64,000 nt of DNA from sequence record LC494302.1; one strand, written 5' to 3'. This stretch comes from Escherichia phage SP27. The notes below the pieces were generated by a model. It made no database searches and was not told where the DNA came from. It worked only from the letters and a program-made list of their open reading frames with translations. The stretch's first letter is position 1; every line of letters begins with the position of its first letter. The position numbers were made by a program, and so were the translations under genes. Positions 51,020 to 62,867 of this stretch are shown piece after piece.

Positions 51020-51097
51020 AATTCCTCCTTTATTCATTATACTATATTTAATACAAATAAGAAAGCCAGTACAAAGTACTGGCATAGTTTTATAGTA
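51020..51097 (-). promoter_or_regulatory. array cassette: terminator hairpin + TATAAT + AAAGGAGG RBS
   Basis: GCCAGTACTTTGTACTGGC hairpin, T-run, TATAAT, RBS 6-8 nt before ATG. Confidence 0.55.
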
Positions 51098-52207
51098 TTA
51101 TTTCGGCATTGTAATTGCAGACCATGAGTTCGTGGTAATAGGACCTGGTACATACAAAAAAGAACCACAAGCATAAATTTGATTATTACCATCAAATACT
51201 ATACTAAAATGTGCACATGTGTATAATGATGATTTTTCTGGGTTGTAATTATCTAAAGTTAGTGTATTGGTGAATCTACTCAAACCACCTCCCGAACCAT
51301 TTCTACCAAATTCACCAGTACTGTATATCTTTCCTTCGGTTGTTGCGTACATATTAACATATGAAGTCGCACTTGATTTTGATATTTTATGTATCTTACT
51401 ATCAATAGTAGTGGAGTTAAATGCAAATGGATATACTTGTGTGTTCGTTGTAATACCGTTACCAAGTTGACCAATATACTGCCAACCTGCGTTGTATATA
51501 TTGCTGGCTGAATAAGCAAGAGTACCAGTACTGTTACCACCAAATAGTTTAACACTTGTTAACCTGCTTACTAGTGTAGTATACTGTCCTGGACTTACGC
51601 CAAGTGAACCATACCCACTGCTCCCGCAACCGAGAAGTTCATTATTTGATGTTAATATTAATGTGTTATTCTGTGTACCCAATATATCAAGAACTGTATT
51701 AGCTCCGGTATTAATAACTGAAACAAAAGTACTCTGAGCCGTGGAATACCCACCACCGAGTGAATAGTTACCATTCATGCCTCTACCATAAACAATCGAA
51801 CCACTAGCATCAACGTAGTGCATTGTATCTGCACCAATTGATATCATTTTAATATTAGATATATGTGGAAATGAAGAAGTAACATTCAAACCACCCAACG
51901 GAATCATAGTATTTCCTGTGCCTAATTGTGTGGTAACTCCATGCATTATGAATTCTTCACCCTTGAGATAAAGAATATTGTACGCACCAGCCCATGCATC
52001 AGTAACACCTTCTGAAATTAATATCCAAGTATTTCTTGTTGCTGTATTTTCAACGTTTAACTGCAAATACGTATTAACCCCACAACCATAAAGTGAGCCA
52101 TCGCCATAGAGGACGTACAAATTATCAAGACCGCACAGTACTTTCTTTATCTTTGGAGCTTCAGGTGCAATATTTCCGTACTTAACCATTCTAGCAAAAG
52201 GTAACAT
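51098..52207 (-). CDS. MLPF-propeller array protein (RCC1-like repeats)
   Basis: MLPFARMVKYGNIAP; motifs GWQYIGQLGNG, GSSGYGSLGVSPGQ; no own cassette, RBS directly after upstream stop. Confidence 0.65.
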   Translation of the reverse strand: MLPFARMVKYGNIAPEAPKIKKVLCGLDNLYVLYGDGSLYGCGVNTYLQLNVENTATRNTWILISEGVTDAWAGAYNILYLKGEEFIMHGVTTQLGTGNTMIPLGGLNVTSSFPHISNIKMISIGADTMHYVDASGSIVYGRGMNGNYSLGGGYSTAQSTFVSVINTGANTVLDILGTQNNTLILTSNNELLGCGSSGYGSLGVSPGQYTTLVSRLTSVKLFGGNSTGTLAYSASNIYNAGWQYIGQLGNGITTNTQVYPFAFNSTTIDSKIHKISKSSATSYVNMYATTEGKIYSTGEFGRNGSGGGLSRFTNTLTLDNYNPEKSSLYTCAHFSIVFDGNNQIYACGSFLYVPGPITTNSWSAITMPK

Positions 52208-52217
52208 AAATTCCTCC

Positions 52218-53397
52218 TTAAATTTGTGGCAATTGGTATTCAGTTAAAGTCCATGTACCAACAACTGTCCCTACTGGAGACATACCAGTGTAGTATAATT
52301 TCCCATTCACATATGCAAATAATGCATTGTCATTCGCAGCAACCAACGATGTTGACGGATCATAAACTACAGAATTTGGAAATTGTGCTTGGACGAAAAT
52401 TGAAGCATTATTAGATGAATTGTTACCAAGCTGTCCATAATTATTATACCCTGTTCCAAAAATACGACTTCCATTTCTATATAATAATCCCCTAGGATTT
52501 TGTGAATATGTTTGTATAAATTCAAAATCGGAAACATTAGTTAATTGTAAATAAGTACTTTGTGGCGTTAAAGATATCTTATTAGTATTAGATAGAACAC
52601 CATTTCCTAATTGTCCGTGAATTTTGTGACCCTACACCATATAGCGGATAAGTATTATCTACATTAAGAACTATACCCAACATATTGTTATATGAAATTA
52701 TATCAACGGGGTACTGGCCTGTAGGAAAACTATACTTTGTCCAACTCGTCAAAGTATCAGTAGCAGAACCAGTTAACAATGTACCAGTACTAGTTTTACC
52801 ACATCGCCATACTGAATTATCATTTTTAATTATCCAAGTCGGACTATTGAAAAATGAACTAACCTTTTTAACATTAATATTAACCTGTGTAAATGATGTA
52901 AGTGTAGATGAACTACTACCCAACTCATAGGTCGAATTATCACCTATTGCGTAAAGAACACTATCATTTGTTAGTAAAAACATATTACGAACATTTGGAT
53001 ATATCTCCTTGATATTATCCACATTAAAACCTGAAAAATAAGACGTACAATCAACAAATGTAGTACTTTGAACTGCACTAGATGTACCAGTCCAAAGGTT
53101 CCAACCTGCATAATAAAATTTATTATCATTGGTCTGAACTAAGCTATATGAAGCATTCCTTGTGCACCAAAAATTTTTCACATTTTGCATTAAGCGAACC
53201 CATTTGGTCTGTGTCGTTGTATTTCCAAGACCGAATATACCAGCATTGTTACCGCCAATACCCCACAAATCACCGTTCTTATACAGAATCATCAATGTGT
53301 TGTTGGTAAAAGCCGATGGTGCTTGCATTTTAATTACACTAGATTCATATATAGGTGCTATATTCCCGTACTTAACCATTCTTGCAAAAGGTAACAT
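52218..53397 (-). pseudogene. MLPF-propeller array gene with internal frameshift
   Basis: Frame from MLPFARMVKYGNIAP stops near 52588; adjacent frame continues with GHKIHGQLGNG and GTGYNNYGQLGNN to 52218. Confidence 0.5.
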
Positions 53398-60475: not shown

Positions 60476-61585
60476 TTATTTTGGTAAATCAATTTTAGTA
60501 AAGACTGCAACATCCTCGATTGCACCTGGAATGGCGTAATACGATCCAGTACTATACACATCTCCATTTTTGGTTAATATCGATGTCAAACCATCACTAA
60601 AAAGAACATCCCTAATCTCACTAACTTCAACGGGTAATTGTAAATTGGTAGCACTATATATAGCACCAGTTTGAGAATTGTTTAATCCCAAACCACGGTT
60701 CGCCCCAACACCCTTCTGATATGTACTAGTAATTACCATTTGTGTAGCAGTATTTAAGGCAGGTGAATTCGTCATAAACAACGGAGAACTATTAGGCAAA
60801 GTACTTAAAGGAACTGCACGGAATGTAGTCGTACCTGAACTAAGAAAGTTTGGAGTTTGACCACATACGAAATATGATGTACCATTATAGTAATTTAATG
60901 CATTACCACCAATGGCTGCATCGATTACACCAGAACTACGCAATCCCCAAGTGTTAATTTGTGTTTGGTTCCCCGTACCATGCTGCCCACTACTATTCCA
61001 TCCAGAACTATATAGCTTATTATCTAATGTAAGATACATACTATCATTCGCATTGGTCATTACTTTACGAACGTTCGTAGCACATTGAGTTAATGTGTAA
61101 ATTGATGATGAACCAATACCCAAAGAACCACGATATCCATTATCTCCTGCACCATAGAGTACTGAATTAGTGCTAAGTACAAATATTAAACCATTTGTAC
61201 ATACAATATTAGCAATTTCACTTACTGGTATAGCATTGGTAAACCAATTAGTTCTTTCAACTAATACAGTACTGTAAGAAGTAGTTGTAGAAGATGAGAA
61301 CCAGTACGTTTGACCTGATGTCCATATCGTATTATCATTTTTAATAATAACAAGTGTACGATCACCCACGAAAAAATTAGAAACATCTGCACTTACTAAT
61401 GTCCACGAAGACACCGTGTTGGTATTACCATTTCCAGATTCACCACCTTGATTTCTACCTATGTAATATAAATCATGTGAATCAGTCAATAAGAATTGGC
61501 CTTGGGTAGAAGCACCAACTTTAATTATTTTTTTAGGACCAGGGACAATATTTCCATACATAATCATTCTTCCAAAAGGTAACAT
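60476..61585 (-). CDS. MLPF-propeller array protein (RCC1-like repeats)
   Basis: True start MLPFGRMIMYGNIVP; GWNSSGQHGTG; RBS directly after upstream stop, no cassette. Confidence 0.65.
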   Translation of the reverse strand: MLPFGRMIMYGNIVPGPKKIIKVGASTQGQFLLTDSHDLYYIGRNQGGESGNGNTNTVSSWTLVSADVSNFFVGDRTLVIIKNDNTIWTSGQTYWFSSSTTTSYSTVLVERTNWFTNAIPVSEIANIVCTNGLIFVLSTNSVLYGAGDNGYRGSLGIGSSSIYTLTQCATNVRKVMTNANDSMYLTLDNKLYSSGWNSSGQHGTGNQTQINTWGLRSSGVIDAAIGGNALNYYNGTSYFVCGQTPNFLSSGTTTFRAVPLSTLPNSSPLFMTNSPALNTATQMVITSTYQKGVGANRGLGLNNSQTGAIYSATNLQLPVEVSEIRDVLFSDGLTSILTKNGDVYSTGSYYAIPGAIEDVAVFTKIDLPK

Positions 61586-61593
61586 ATTCCCTC

Positions 61594-62796
61594 CTATTGT
61601 TGCCATAACTGCGATGGCATTAATGTTAGTGTAGTAATACTATAAGTGCCATCTGGCAATCTACCACCATTTCCATTCCAGCCACCACATGCATATAATT
61701 TATAATCTTTAGTAATTATTATGGTTCTGCTCCAATCTTTAGATGCCATAAGAACATTGTCATAACCACTACTTATTGCACTAAGATTAAAAATATTCCA
61801 AGTTCTAACTAATGTATTAGTTCCATTACCTTCTTGACCATATGAGTTAGCACCACTACTTCTAACATATGGTGCGTATTGTGCCATAGGTGCACCAATT
61901 GATGCATTTCCCATATTACTTGGACAAATAAAAGTACTGTACTTACTTACATCAACCGTGACCGATGTGTTCCTAATTGGTGTTAGCTGATTTACCGATG
62001 TAGTCGTACCATTACCAGCTTGTCCAGAACTGTTAGCCCCGCTATAATATACAGACCCACCAGTAGTAAACCACCAAGTAACATCGTATGTAGTACTAAT
62101 ATGTTCTACATTACTAATCACGAATTTGTTCAAATATACAACAGAACTACCACCACATCCACTTTCACCAAAGTTATCCTTACCACAAAACCATGCATCT
62201 TTATTTGATTTGATATAGTGCGTTCCTTGTAATGAACATGCCATATGTGTAACTTCACCCATATTAGTCATAACTGTGAGTGTAGGGATGGAATTTTTAT
62301 TCCCAGAGCCACATTCACCATTAGTATTTCTTCCACACGCAATTACTCTACCATCGGTTAATAATATTCTAGTACTTTCACCTATATATACACTCTTGAT
62401 CATATTAGCCATAACACCTATTTTATTAAATGCAACAGTAACATCAGTCCATGTTGTCAAATAACCATTAACAGGTGTTGCATCTCCATAATCAGAAAAT
62501 GCACCAACCGACCCAGTGTAGTATATTTTATTATCCAAATCAATCATCAATGAACCTTGAACACCAAGCCAAAAGGCTGCACAGTTCCTTGCAAGTACTG
62601 TAAATGACGAAACTGCTGCTGAATTCCCAAGACCAAATTGATAAAAGTTATTACTACCATAACCATATAAAGTATTAGTTGGGTTATGGAGATACATACA
62701 GTTTGTATAATGTTGTTGTAAAACATCTGAGAACTCTACAGGTTCTGGACCTGGTGCAATATTTGCGTACTTAACCATTCTTCCAAAAGGTAACAT
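61594..62796 (-). CDS. MLPF-propeller array protein (RCC1-like repeats)
   Basis: MLPFGRMVKYANIAP; GRNTNGECGSG, GANSSGQAGNG, GANSYGQEGNG. Confidence 0.7.
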   Translation of the reverse strand: MLPFGRMVKYANIAPGPEPVEFSDVLQQHYTNCMYLHNPTNTLYGYGSNNFYQFGLGNSAAVSSFTVLARNCAAFWLGVQGSLMIDLDNKIYYTGSVGAFSDYGDATPVNGYLTTWTDVTVAFNKIGVMANMIKSVYIGESTRILLTDGRVIACGRNTNGECGSGNKNSIPTLTVMTNMGEVTHMACSLQGTHYIKSNKDAWFCGKDNFGESGCGGSSVVYLNKFVISNVEHISTTYDVTWWFTTGGSVYYSGANSSGQAGNGTTTSVNQLTPIRNTSVTVDVSKYSTFICPSNMGNASIGAPMAQYAPYVRSSGANSYGQEGNGTNTLVRTWNIFNLSAISSGYDNVLMASKDWSRTIIITKDYKLYACGGWNGNGGRLPDGTYSITTLTLMPSQLWQQ

Positions 62797-62867
62797 ATTT
62801 CCCTCCTTTATTCATTATACTATATTTAATACAAAAAGAAATGCCAGTATCAAGTACTGGCATAATA
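62797..62867 (-). promoter_or_regulatory. array cassette
   Basis: ATGCCAGTACTTGATACTGGCAT hairpin, TATAAT, AAAGGAGGGAAAT. Confidence 0.55.

What the first reader, a model, noticed from the sequence alone, without database searches (positions are those of the whole stretch)
51020..62867. Each array gene is an autonomous unit behind a near-identical hairpin/TATAAT/RBS cassette; two gene pairs lack it
Seen: about 70 bp before most array genes is almost the same on the coding strand: inverted repeat ATGCCAGTAC-loop-GTACTGGCAT, T-run, GTATTAAATATAGTATAATGAATAAAGGAGG, then ATG. The hairpin plus T-run can terminate the upstream gene and the TATAAT/ATTAAATA box can drive the next, so every variable body has its own switch. 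Two junctions (52207/52218 and 61585/61594) have only an RBS after the upstream stop. Inference: the repeated cassette and conserved first 45 nt give homology arms for shuffling or replacing bodies.
Basis: partly seen in the sequence, partly recalled or inferred. Interest (0 to 1): 0.65.

Follow-up and report, generated by a model that had tools for sequence, protein, structure and literature searches.

The report
Recombination cassettes flanking phage propeller genes
A giant E. coli phage carries a row of about a dozen virion-protein genes, most of them behind the same ~70-base stop/start signal and all with the same 15-codon opening, and related phages show that whole genes are swapped, lost and reordered at these repeats. 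This is a known style of phage genome plasticity, found here in a new place and form.

Summary
The window comes from an Asteriusvirus-type jumbo coliphage. On the minus strand, 11 genes start ATGTTACCTTTT (MLPFxRMxxYGN). Nine sit behind a cassette that is 91% identical between copies: a CCAGTAC/GTACTGG hairpin, a T-run, GTATTAAATATAGTATAATGAATAAAGGAGG. Two (ATG at 61585 and 52207) have only a stop codon plus RBS.

The gene bodies are about 56% identical in DNA. Ten are RCC1-like seven-bladed propellers and one is glycine-rich.

In nine related phages the flanks are 95-99% identical, yet I count 40 body types, and order and content differ. Of 20 distinct similarity breakpoints, 18 fall in the cassette/leader zones, which are 11% of the sequence. 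Chimeric leaders pin some crossovers inside the first 45 nt.

So the shuffling inference is supported. Transcriptional autonomy is only inferred. The box conserved across four phage lineages is TAAATA, the late-promoter core seen before 17 of 26 structural-region genes of phAPEC6, not TATAAT. Relatives also run such arrays as plain operons.

Orthologues of five window bodies were detected in phAPEC6 virions. The leader is disordered in the structure model and specific to the phage lineage, so it is probably a virion-docking tag.

Closest known: PeSL cassettes of T4-like phages and the T-even internal-protein loci. Verdict: new variant of a known kind.

The parts
62868..64000 (-). Array gene O (RCC1-like propeller). 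Its 3' part only; the 5' end lies beyond the window.
   Evidence: ORF. Same body precedes A in E9.1, slurp01 and SHEFM2K.
62797..62863 (-). Cassette before A: hairpin 62863-62841, T-run, 31-nt box 62832-62802 holding TAAATA (62828-62823), TATAAT and the SD.
61594..62796 (-). Gene A, 400 aa, MLPFGRMVKYANIAP leader plus RCC1-like propeller.
61586..61596 (-). Tight A/B junction: stop TAG lies inside the SD (TAGGAGGGAAT), then ATG. No hairpin and no box. The same junction is present in 6 genomes.
60476..61585 (-). Gene B, 369 aa, RCC1-like.
60406..60471 (-). Cassette before C (variant TATAACAAATAAAGG).
59266..60405 (-). Gene C, 379 aa, RCC1-like.
59195..59261 (-). Cassette before D.
58046..59194 (-). 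Gene D, 382 aa. AF2 model: residues 1-18 disordered, residues 19-382 a seven-bladed RCC1-like propeller.
57975..58041 (-). Cassette before E.
56787..57974 (-). Gene E, 395 aa, RCC1-like.
56716..56780 (-). Cassette before F.
55978..56715 (-). Gene F, 245 aa. Same leader, but a glycine-rich body that is not a propeller (phrog_4474; relatives carry PF21722).
55906..55972 (-). Cassette before G (variant GAATAAGGAGGGG).
54754..55905 (-). Gene G, 383 aa, RCC1-like. Orthologue phAPEC6 gp005 was detected in virions.
54682..54749 (-). Cassette before H.
53506..54681 (-). Gene H, 391 aa, RCC1-like. Orthologue phAPEC6 gp006 was detected in virions.
53398..53465 (-). Cassette before I.
52218..53397 (-). 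Gene I, frameshifted. 269 aa run to the stop at 52588; a second frame stays open from about 52631 to 52218 (138 codons). The truncated orthologue phAPEC6 gp007 was detected in virions.
52208..52220 (-). Tight I/J junction: TAA, GGAGGAATTT, ATG. No hairpin and no box.
51098..52207 (-). Gene J, 369 aa, RCC1-like. Orthologue phAPEC6 gp009 was detected in virions.
51020..51085 (-). Cassette before K.
49850..51019 (-). Gene K, 389 aa, RCC1-like. Orthologue phAPEC6 gp010 was detected in virions.
49778..49844 (-). Degenerate last cassette: strong hairpin 49844-49822, T7 run, CCTAAATATAATAAC, weak SD.
49354..49777 (-). Gene L remnant (MLPFRRIITSS...). It is broken into fragments and lacks about 718 bp at 49637-49647 relative to E9.1, 121Q, PBECO4 and slurp01.

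Best explanation
This is the hyperplastic locus of an Asteriusvirus-type jumbo coliphage. It is a tandem array of late-expressed, virion-associated proteins built as [12-15 aa N-terminal tag] - [Pro-rich linker] - [interchangeable globular body]. Most bodies are RCC1-like seven-bladed propellers; one is a glycine-rich domain.

Most genes are separated by a composite junction of about 115 nt: intrinsic-terminator hairpin with T-run, a TAAATA late-type promoter core, a Shine-Dalgarno site, and 45 nt encoding the tag.

Shown:
- The junction is repeated nearly identically while the bodies are unrelated at the DNA level.
- Related phages differ by gain, loss, replacement and reordering of whole bodies.
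- The breakpoints lie in the junction, and some crossovers are resolvable inside the leader.
- Hairpin loops and small linked variants in the cassette are reshuffled between junctions.

Inferred:
- The hairpin ends the upstream transcript, and the TAAATA box restarts transcription with the phage's gp55-like late sigma. Most bodies would then be expressed on their own, while A-B and I-J would be co-transcribed.
- The tag docks each body onto a shared site on the virion, so a particle displays a mixture of putative binding modules.
- Homologous recombination or gene conversion between the repeated junctions is what moves modules within and between co-infecting phages.
For: Repeat and contrast:
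- Box found 9 times, 0 expected.
- Cassette 0.91, leader 0.86 and bodies 0.56 pairwise identity.

Shuffling:
- 40 body types in 10 genomes. D is first in 121Q and UE-S1; the order is G-F-E in UE-S1 against E-F-G elsewhere; B follows A, M or U.
- 31 of 39 internal megablast ends, and 18 of 20 distinct end clusters, lie in junction zones that make up 11.3% of the sequence; binomial P 1.4e-15, none inside an intact body.
- The window's own array is a mosaic. It is phAPEC6-like over 49000-58041 and slurp01/SHEFM2K-like over 56679-64000.
- Chimeric leaders: the G17 D>M junction equals the D>E junction up to about nt 38 and is M-type after that. In 121Q the C>E junction equals the C>D junction up to nt 43. 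The leader of B changes with its upstream neighbour.
- Linked variants such as TATAACAAATAAAGG, and the loop sequence, differ at the same junction between genomes that are 97-99% identical.

Late promoter:
- TAAATA lies 26 nt before each ATG.
- TAAATA precedes 17 of 26 structural-region genes of phAPEC6, including the major capsid protein, protease and baseplate wedge; about 1 is expected.
- phAPEC6 gp237c is annotated as the late sigma factor.
- Rak2-like phages have a reported ATAAATA late motif and a gp55-like sigma (PMC5259590).
- GGGTAAATA precedes the single GAP32 gene, the fHe-Yen9-04 operon and the first array gene of every Asteriusvirus examined.
- The cassette has no TTGACA -35, although the early promoters in this window are near-consensus.

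Terminator: G+C-rich stem plus T-run. The same hairpins are annotated as terminators in G17.

Virion association:
- phAPEC6 gp003, 005, 006, 007, 009, 010, 549 and 551 were found by virion MS (PMC7247149). gp005-gp010 are orthologues of window bodies G, H, I, J and K.
- GAP32 gp1 was also detected by MS.

Tag:
- M1, P3, F4, Y10 and N12 are invariant across 22 sequences, including paralogues only 20% identical overall.
- The tag is kept in relatives only 37-52% identical and is absent from bacterial RCC1 homologues.
- pLDDT is below 50 for residues 1-18 against 91 overall.
- The glycine-rich body carries MLPF/MIPF in Rak2-like phages but M[LI]E[LMT]L in other phage groups.
- A Kelch propeller sits in the metagenomic relative's array behind the same leader.
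- The truncated product of gene I still reaches the virion.

Binding role of the bodies: RCC1-like domains occur inside annotated tail-fibre proteins of Pseudomonas phages Littlefix and PollyC.
Against: - There are no transcript 5' or 3' ends for any Asteriusvirus, so promoter and terminator activity are inferred from sequence alone.
- The T-run is interrupted (TTTCTTATTTG), so termination may be partial.
- TATAAT and TATAGT also lie in the box, so a sigma-70-type or phage-sigma promoter is not excluded. The window encodes a sigma-70-family protein at 23924-24889.
- Relatives with tight junctions show that the cassette is not needed for the array to work.
- The breakpoint test is partly built in. 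The bodies share no homology, so homologous exchange can only happen in the junctions, and chimeric propellers would probably be selected against.
- MS peptide counts are low (1-5), and where the proteins sit in the particle is unknown.
- No binding activity has been shown for any body.
Confidence: 0.7

Rival explanations
1. The junctions are ordinary regulatory DNA inherited through tandem duplication of a whole transcription unit. They stay alike only because selection preserves terminator, promoter, RBS and tag. Recombination at them is an incidental by-product, not something that shapes the locus.
For: - GAP32 has a single gene with terminator, GGGTAAATA and the same tag, a plausible ancestral unit.
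- Every element of the junction has an obvious expression or protein role.
Against: - Codons 2-4 (TTA CCT TTT) are identical in all 11 genes, and the same leader variants are shared by neighbouring genes. Another lineage has a different, again homogenised, codon set.
- Linked multi-base variants and loops are exchanged between junctions of near-identical genomes. Together these indicate ongoing gene conversion.
- Order permutations require recombination.
Confidence: 0.15
2. The proteins are internal head (ejection) proteins, like the T-even IPs. On this reading the conserved N-terminus is a capsid-targeting sequence removed by the prohead protease. The variable bodies are injected to counter host defences and are not displayed on the surface.
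For: - Same locus logic as the T-even IP loci: variable ORFs, a conserved short leader and conserved regulatory flanks (PMC2839356 discussion).
- Virion MS detection.
- phAPEC6 has an inner body of unknown composition, and its authors suggested the RCC1 proteins for it.
- A gp21-like prohead protease is encoded.
Against: - No conserved (L/I)xE-type cleavage motif follows the leader; the residues after YGN vary as IAPGPEP, IAPELIL, KIEYKPD and others.
- RCC1-like domains occur in tail-fibre proteins of other phages.
- The bodies are about 40-kDa rigid propellers, and bacterial homologues are secreted or surface proteins with signal peptides or T9SS sorting domains.
- None of this is decisive.
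Confidence: 0.2
3. The cassette promoter is a host sigma-70 or phage sigma-70-family promoter (TATAAT or TATAGT as the -10). The array would then be expressed early or in the middle of infection.
For: - A perfect TATAAT lies 14-16 nt before the SD.
- The scan reports CTGGCA-17-TATAGT (9 of 12 matches) at three cassettes.
- A sigma-70-family gene is in the window.
Against: - The promoter-like scan is not enriched overall (74 found against 77 expected).
- This phage's early promoters carry near-consensus TTGACA, which the cassette lacks.
- TATAAT is absent before the GAP32 and fHe-Yen9-04 genes, while TAAATA is kept.
- A start after TATAAT would leave only about 5 nt of RNA before the SD.
- The products are in virions.
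Confidence: 0.12
4. An integron-like or otherwise site-specific system: the hairpins are recombination sites recognised as folded DNA by a dedicated recombinase that captures and excises gene cassettes.
For: - The layout is an array of single-gene cassettes separated by imperfect palindromes.
- Hairpin loops flip to their exact reverse complement between genomes, which points to DNA-level hairpin events.
Against: - No integrase or recombinase was found among the 10 longest non-array ORFs of the window, nor in the annotation around nine arrays.
- The stems are only 8-10 bp and lack attC-type architecture.
- Each cassette carries its own promoter.
- Some crossovers map in the leader, not in the hairpin.
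Confidence: 0.03

Closest known systems
PeSLs (promoter-early stem-loops) of T4-like phages (Arbiol et al. 2010, PMC2839356; Comeau et al. 2014, PMC4122927)
   Same: - A small composite terminator/promoter motif lies between the stop of one gene and the SD/start of the next.
- It is repeated many times in a hyperplastic region.
- Insertions, deletions and replacements between close relatives have their breakpoints in the motif.
   Different: - PeSLs are sigma-70-type early promoters with a -35, a -10 and an AT-rich upstream region. They often have polyG/polyC stems overlapping the promoter, and they flank small early ORFans.
- Here the stem-loop precedes a TAAATA late-type box with no -35.
- The genes encode 40-kDa virion proteins.
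- The shared homology extends 45 nt into the coding sequence.
- The host phage is a Rak2-like jumbo phage.
- The same window also holds four true PeSL-type early cassettes, at 33358, 39212, 43707 and 44989, so the two classes coexist.
Internal-protein (IP) loci of T-even phages (Repoila et al. 1994, as summarised in PMC2839356; the original paper is not held)
   Same: - A short locus of highly variable ORFs.
- All ORFs share a short N-terminal leader and PeSL-like regulatory flanks.
- The products are packaged in the virion.
- Shuffling is confined to the locus.
   Different: - The IP leaders are capsid-targeting sequences cleaved by the prohead protease (my own knowledge). No such cleavage motif is present here.
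- The IP elements use T4 early promoters.
- The bodies here are propellers or a glycine-rich domain, and their location in the particle is unknown.
Multi-receptor-binding-protein sets with shared N-terminal anchor domains, for example the tailspike clusters of Klebsiella jumbo phages RaK2 and K64-1 (own knowledge, not tested here)
   Same: - Many paralogous virion proteins with a conserved N-terminal attachment part and divergent distal parts.
- They are encoded side by side in a related phage group.
   Different: - Those anchors are folded domains on large trimeric spikes with enzymatic heads.
- Here the conserved part is a 12-15 aa disordered peptide on a monomer-sized propeller.
- No receptor or enzymatic function is known for any body.
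Integron gene-cassette arrays
   Same: An array of single-gene modules separated by hairpin-forming repeats, with module content differing between close relatives.
   Different: No integrase and no attC architecture. Each cassette has its own promoter. The exchange looks like homologous recombination across about 115 nt.

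Membership tests
PeSL cassettes | Composite stem-loop plus promoter lying between the upstream stop codon and the downstream SD/start, repeated in the genome | tested here: met
   9 copies in the window; about 59 parsable copies in eight related arrays.
PeSL cassettes | The promoter is a sigma-70-type early promoter (-35, -10, AT-rich upstream region) | tested here: not met
   No TTGACA-like -35. The conserved core is TAAATA, as before late genes.
PeSL cassettes | Located in hyperplastic regions, with indel and replacement breakpoints between close relatives falling in the cassette | tested here: met
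   40 body types in 10 genomes; 18 of 20 breakpoint clusters in junction zones.
PeSL cassettes | Measured promoter and terminator activity; formation of mini-circles by recombination between neighbouring cassettes | not testable with these tools
   Needs reporter assays and inverse PCR on infected cells or virion DNA.
T-even IP-type loci | Variable ORFs sharing a short conserved N-terminal leader and conserved regulatory flanks | tested here: met
   M1, P3, F4, Y10 and N12 invariant across 22 sequences; cassette data as above.
T-even IP-type loci | The leader is a capsid-targeting sequence cleaved by the prohead protease at an (L/I)xE-type site | tested here: not met
   No conserved Glu-containing motif after the leader. 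Actual cleavage cannot be tested here.
T-even IP-type loci | Proteins are packaged inside the head and injected | tested here: inconclusive
   Virion-associated by MS in phAPEC6 and GAP32; their location in the particle is unknown.
T4-type (gp55-dependent) late promoter | TATAAATA-like -10 element without a -35, found before late/structural genes, with a gp55-like sigma encoded by the phage | tested here: met
   - TAAATA in every cassette.
- TAAATA before 17 of 26 structural-region genes of phAPEC6.
- Late sigma gp237c annotated in phAPEC6.
The match to the 8-mer is 6 of 8. Promoter activity was not tested.
Intrinsic (Rho-independent) terminator | G+C-rich stem-loop followed at once by a U-run | tested here: met
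   Stems of 8-10 bp with 4-5 G-C pairs, then at least 5 T in 8 bases. The hairpin is in the centroid fold of all nine junctions. The T-run is interrupted and activity was not tested.
RCC1-like repeat beta-propeller (Pfam PF00415 / PF13540 / PF25390) | Seven-bladed propeller with RCC1 repeats | tested here: met
   - Pfam hits in 10 of 11 bodies, above the curated cut-off for PF00415 and/or PF13540 in 9.
- AF2 model pLDDT 91.
- Foldseek to UVR8, RPGR, HERC2 and RCC1: TM 0.6-0.75, E down to 1e-19.
RCC1 as chromatin / 'DNA condensation' factor (the database name of these genes) | Ran-GEF or nucleosome/DNA-binding function | not tested
   The name is transferred from the fold only. Sequence identity to RCC1 is about 15%. 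Nothing here bears on DNA binding.
Integron cassette array | Adjacent tyrosine-recombinase integrase, attC sites, promoterless cassettes | tested here: not met
   No recombinase domain in the 10 longest non-array ORFs of the window or in the annotations of nine loci. Each cassette carries a promoter-like box.

The most novel reading that the evidence does not exclude
The locus works as a recombinase-free 'adhesin library'.
- A 12-15 aa docking peptide would let any body (RCC1 propeller, Kelch propeller, glycine-rich domain) be plugged onto one shared site of the virion.
- The terminator/late-promoter/leader junction would be a portable homology cassette. Through mini-circles or gene conversion during co-infection, it would let phage populations trade binding modules and change what their particles stick to.
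- The frequent loop inversions would mark hairpin extrusion as the step that starts these exchanges.
Probability: 0.2. Interest if true: 0.75.

Novelty: new variant of a known kind. Interest (0 to 1): 0.5.

Why it matters
Asteriusvirus phages (PBECO4, 121Q, phAPEC6 and many recent isolates) are being characterised as therapy candidates. Yet the roughly 14 kb they devote to 'regulator of chromosome condensation' genes is unexplained and carries a misleading name.

This analysis gives the locus a concrete, testable design:
- late-expressed virion proteins with a common N-terminal tag;
- interchangeable propeller or glycine-rich bodies;
- a repeated regulatory junction at which whole modules are exchanged.

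It extends the PeSL / T-even IP principle, in which regulatory cassettes double as recombination arms, from early ORFans of T4-like phages to a late structural array in a distant jumbo-phage group.

It points to the array as the most plastic part of otherwise 95-99% identical genomes. That makes it the first place to look for differences in adsorption or host range between isolates, and a natural site for engineering, since a body could be swapped between two cassettes.

Tried and rejected
- IMG/VR scan for the cassette box: it found only the 121Q genome itself.
- JP4 virion-MS supplements: no mention of these proteins in the text held.
- UE-S1 and Sharanji papers: nothing on promoters, repeats or the array.
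- PA5oct transcriptome paper: only sigma-70-type motifs are reported, so it does not help with the late class.
- NCBIfam: no family for bodies D or F.
- PDB sequence search: only eukaryotic RCC1-like domains, no phage structure.
- Repoila et al. 1994 is not held, so the comparison with the IP loci rests on its summary in PMC2839356 and on my own knowledge.
- Idea that the terminator's U-run masks the SD only in read-through transcripts: rejected. The predicted SD accessibility is equally low with and without the upstream part in 8 of 9 cassettes. The partner is the CCTTTT of codons 3-4, which is not conserved as DNA in fHe-Yen9-04.
- Conditional-entropy test of which cassette half travels with which neighbour: only weakly informative, because most neighbour pairs are conserved.
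- Mobile-element (MITE/REP-like) reading: rejected. The repeat sits at a fixed distance from each ATG and has no terminal inverted repeats or target duplications.
- Velcro-strand reading of the leader (a structural part of the propeller): rejected. It is disordered in the model and is also found on non-propeller bodies.

Full report
WHAT THE WINDOW IS.
The region matches 36 jumbo phages of Escherichia and Salmonella (310-386 kb). These belong to the PBECO4 / 121Q / phAPEC6 group, genus Asteriusvirus. The best match is E9.1, at 83% coverage and 95.7% identity. Positions 1-49,400 hold small plus-strand genes with near-consensus sigma-70 promoters, six tRNAs and a sigma-70-family gene. From 49,354 to the window end a minus-strand array begins.

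THE OBSERVATION.
- Eleven genes start ATGTTACCTTTT and encode MLPF[AGV]RM..YGN. A twelfth, decayed copy starts at 49777.
- Nine of the eleven are preceded by the same junction. It consists of a hairpin with an 8-10 bp stem (CCAGTA(C)/(G)TACTGG) and a 3-5 nt loop, a T-rich run, and the box GTATTAAATATAGTATAATGAATAAAGGAGG.
- The box occurs 9 times with at most 3 mismatches, against 0 in 100 shuffles, and nowhere else in the window.
- Terminator-like sites number 23 against 6.5 +/- 3.3 expected. The hairpin is in the centroid fold of every junction.
- Pairwise identity is 0.91 for the 72-nt cassette, 0.86 for the first 45 nt of the genes and 0.56 for the bodies.
- The two exceptions are exactly as reported. 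A/B reads TAG-GAGGGAAT-ATG at 61596-61583. I/J reads TAA-GGAGGAATTT-ATG at 52220-52205.
- The upstream partner of J is the out-of-frame tail of gene I. That gene carries one frameshift near 52600-52630, and its second frame stays open for 138 codons.

WHAT THE GENES ENCODE.
- Ten bodies hit RCC1-type Pfam models. Body F (55978-56715) hits none, is glycine-rich (phrog_4474), and has relatives carrying PF21722.
- An AlphaFold2 model of D has mean pLDDT 91. Residues 19-382 form a seven-bladed propeller, and residues 1-18 have pLDDT below 50.
- The nearest solved folds are UVR8, RPGR, HERC2 and RCC1, at about 15% identity.
- Among viral models the propeller recurs in GAP32 gp1 and in Yersinia and Erwinia jumbo phages. 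It also recurs inside annotated tail-fibre proteins of Pseudomonas phages Littlefix and PollyC.
- The database name 'regulator of chromosome condensation / DNA condensation protein' is fold-name transfer only.
- In phAPEC6, virion mass spectrometry detected gp003, 005, 006, 007, 009, 010, 549 and 551 (PMC7247149). By position and 97.7% DNA identity, gp005-gp010 are the orthologues of window bodies G, H, I (the truncated form), J and K.
- GAP32 gp1 was likewise detected by MS (PMC5259590).

I fetched the array from nine related phages, found every leader-bearing gene, and typed the bodies by DNA similarity.
- Ten genomes hold 40 body types. Content and order differ although the flanks are 95-99% identical. 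Examples:
  - window: A.B C D E F G H I.J K L
  - 121Q: D M B C E F Y G H I.J L
  - G17: R A.B Aa D M E F H.S.I.K L
  - UE-S1: D T.U.B G F E Q Ab
- The same body turns up in different contexts. D is first in two genomes. B follows A, M or U. G-F-E is reversed relative to E-F-G.
- Megablast of the window array against each locus gives 39 internal alignment ends, 31 of them in the junction zones. Collapsed to 20 distinct positions, 18 lie in zones that make up 11.3% of the sequence (binomial P 1.4e-15).
- The two exceptions are an internal deletion in the decayed gene L and the first base after the stop codon of H.
- No breakpoint lies inside an intact body.
- The window's own array is a mosaic. 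It is phAPEC6-like up to 58041 and slurp01/SHEFM2K-like from 56679.
- This test is partly built in, because only the junctions share homology. Finer evidence therefore matters:
  - Chimeric leaders place crossovers inside the first 45 nt. The G17 D>M junction is E-type up to about nt 38 and M-type after that. The 121Q C>E junction equals C>D up to nt 43. The leader of B changes with its neighbour.
  - Linked variants such as TATAACAAATAAAGG appear at one junction in one genome and not in its 97-99% identical relative.
  - Codons 2-4 are TTA CCT TTT in all eleven genes, while a distant lineage has its own homogenised set.
- Together these indicate ongoing homologous exchange and gene conversion at the junctions.

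WHICH PROMOTER.
- The cassette contains TAAATA, TATAGT and TATAAT. TAAATA is the element that is conserved:
  - GGGTAAATA precedes the single GAP32 gene.
  - GGGTAAATATGAT precedes the five-gene fHe-Yen9-04 operon.
  - GGTAAATATGATATAAT precedes the first gene of every Asteriusvirus array examined, whichever body comes first.
  - TTAAATA follows the hairpin in the three cassettes of a metagenomic relative.
- TATAAT is absent in GAP32 and fHe-Yen9-04.
- In a 50-kb structural region of phAPEC6, TAAATA lies within 90 nt upstream of 17 of 26 genes, including the major capsid protein, protease and wedge. About 1 would be expected from its density in the early region.
- That region also encodes the annotated late sigma factor.
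- Rak2-like phages have a reported ATAAATA late motif and a gp55-like sigma.
- Early promoters in this window carry near-consensus TTGACA, which the cassette lacks.
- I therefore read the box as a late, gp55-type promoter. This fits the virion location of the products, but it is inference. No transcript map exists.

ARE THE GENES AUTONOMOUS?
Probably most are expressed from their own promoter, but autonomy is not required. The fHe-Yen9-04 array has one promoter, one terminator and only tight junctions. Six of nine junctions in the metagenomic relative are tight. Body K occurs with a cassette (after J) and without one (after I or H). Tight junctions place the stop codon in or next to the SD (TAGGAGG, TAAGGAGG, GAATAGGAGG). 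They could be ancestral, or they could arise by deletion between the cassette's GAATAAAGGAGG and similar 3' ends. The direction cannot be decided here.

THE LEADER.
- M1, P3, F4, Y10 and N12 are invariant across 22 sequences, including paralogues only 20% identical overall.
- The motif persists in relatives with 37-52% identity and in GAP32. It is absent from bacterial RCC1 homologues, which have signal peptides or T9SS sorting domains instead.
- It is disordered in the model and is followed by a Pro-rich stretch.
- It sits on propellers, on a Kelch propeller and on the glycine-rich body.
- The glycine-rich family carries a different conserved N-terminus (M[LI]E[LMT]L) in other phage groups.
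- The truncated product of gene I is still found in virions.
- The simplest reading is a lineage-specific docking tag for virion incorporation. A T4-IP-like capsid-targeting sequence is the main rival. No (L/I)xE-type cleavage motif is present, but cleavage was not testable.

COMPARISON WITH WHAT IS KNOWN.
- Composite terminator/promoter cassettes that mediate modular shuffling are established for T4-like phages as PeSLs (PMC2839356, PMC4122927). They were foreshadowed by the T-even internal-protein loci.
- The present junction shares the architecture, the hyperplastic context and the breakpoint behaviour. It fails the defining sigma-70 early-promoter feature, flanks late structural genes, and extends into a conserved coding leader as at the IP loci.
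- The same window also holds four genuine PeSL-type early cassettes.
- The array itself has been noted in the literature as tandem RCC1-like duplicates. I found no description of the cassette, the leader or the shuffling in the papers searched.
- Hence the verdict: a new variant of a known kind.

VERDICT.
- The shuffling inference is supported by comparative data.
- The 'own switch' claim is plausible but unproven, and the promoter assignment is amended to a late TAAATA type.
- Interest is moderate. The mechanism is not surprising to a T4 specialist. It does give a clear, testable model for a large, mis-named and highly variable locus of a phage group in therapeutic use.

Noticed in passing
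whole window; also L007, L010, L011, L012, L013: The palindrome AGTACT is about 9-fold over-represented relative to base composition: 192 observed against 21.9 expected. CAGTACTG occurs 38 times against 0.6 expected. It is found in all three reading frames (42/28/29) and in non-coding DNA. The excess is 5- to 27-fold in phAPEC6, EJP2, a metagenomic relative, GAP32 and Yersinia phage fHe-Yen9-04, while the control palindromes ATGCAT and TCATGA stay within 0.5- to 2.5-fold. The array hairpin arms (CCAGTAC / GTACTGG) are a split copy of it. No explanation found.
   Followed up: partly
window 33358-33390, 39212-39244, 43707-43739, 44989-45021 (+): Four copies of a true PeSL-type early cassette. 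The stem-loop GGGTTGAC-TTCG-GTCAGCCC contains the -35 TTGAC, and is followed by a T-run and TATAAT. 0 copies are expected by chance. The same elements are annotated only as terminators in G17.
   Followed up: partly
array hairpins, e.g. window 60452-60468, 56762-56778, 54729-54746, compared with L001-L009: Hairpin loops are hypervariable and often flip to the exact reverse complement at the same junction in genomes that are otherwise 97-99% identical. Orientation counts: TCT/AGA 5:4, TTT/AAA 3:3, TCA/TGA 3:2, TCAA/TTGA 4:1. Among 86 orthologous-junction pairs, 50 are the same, 7 are exact reverse complements and 29 are different. This suggests loop inversion or template switching at the DNA level, together with gene conversion.
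   Followed up: partly
window 52218-53397 (-): Gene I carries a single frameshift, probably a 2-nt loss in ...AATTCACGGACAATTAGG..., where GSQNSHGQLGNG would be expected. The second frame stays open for 138 codons. The same truncation (269 aa) is present in phAPEC6, 121Q, G17 and SHEFM2K, and the truncated phAPEC6 product gp007 was detected in virions. It could be a recent pseudogene spread by recombination, or a programmed shift; this was not resolved.
   Followed up: partly
window 49354-49844 (-): The last array unit, L, is a decaying copy. It has a divergent leader (MLPFRRIITSS), a degenerate box (CCTAAATATAATAAC) and broken ORFs. It also has an internal deletion of about 718 bp at an 11-nt overlap (49637-49647) relative to E9.1, 121Q, PBECO4 and slurp01. 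phAPEC6 and G17 share the deletion.
   Followed up: partly
window 9839, 10318, 27273, 31588, 41941 (+) and about 12 further sites: There are about 17 near-consensus TTGACA-17-TATAAT promoters before the plus-strand early genes. Five of them have CAGTACTG directly abutting the -10, which gives an extended TGTATAAT.
   Followed up: no
window 23924-24889 (+); 8200-12642 (+): A sigma-70-family protein (regions 2, 3 and 4) is encoded among the early genes. There is also a cluster of six tRNA genes: Gly, Ser x2, Met, Asn and Thr.
   Followed up: no
proteins P0044-P0075, P0100 (relatives of window 55978-56715): Outside the Rak2-like phages, the glycine-rich body family starts with its own conserved N-terminus M[LI]E[LMT]L..., including Salmonella phage PVPSE1 protein 19. 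This suggests that short lineage-specific N-terminal tags on portable bodies are a wider phage design.
   Followed up: no
L011 8353-10000; L013 about 820-1120; L012 3659-3760: The DNA next to the first (or only) RCC1-like gene in the metagenomic relative, fHe-Yen9-04 and GAP32 is largely free of called genes and dense in (C)AGTACT(G) copies. In the GAP32, fHe-Yen9-04 and metagenomic records the gene or array lies within a few kb to about 25 kb of a record end.
   Followed up: no
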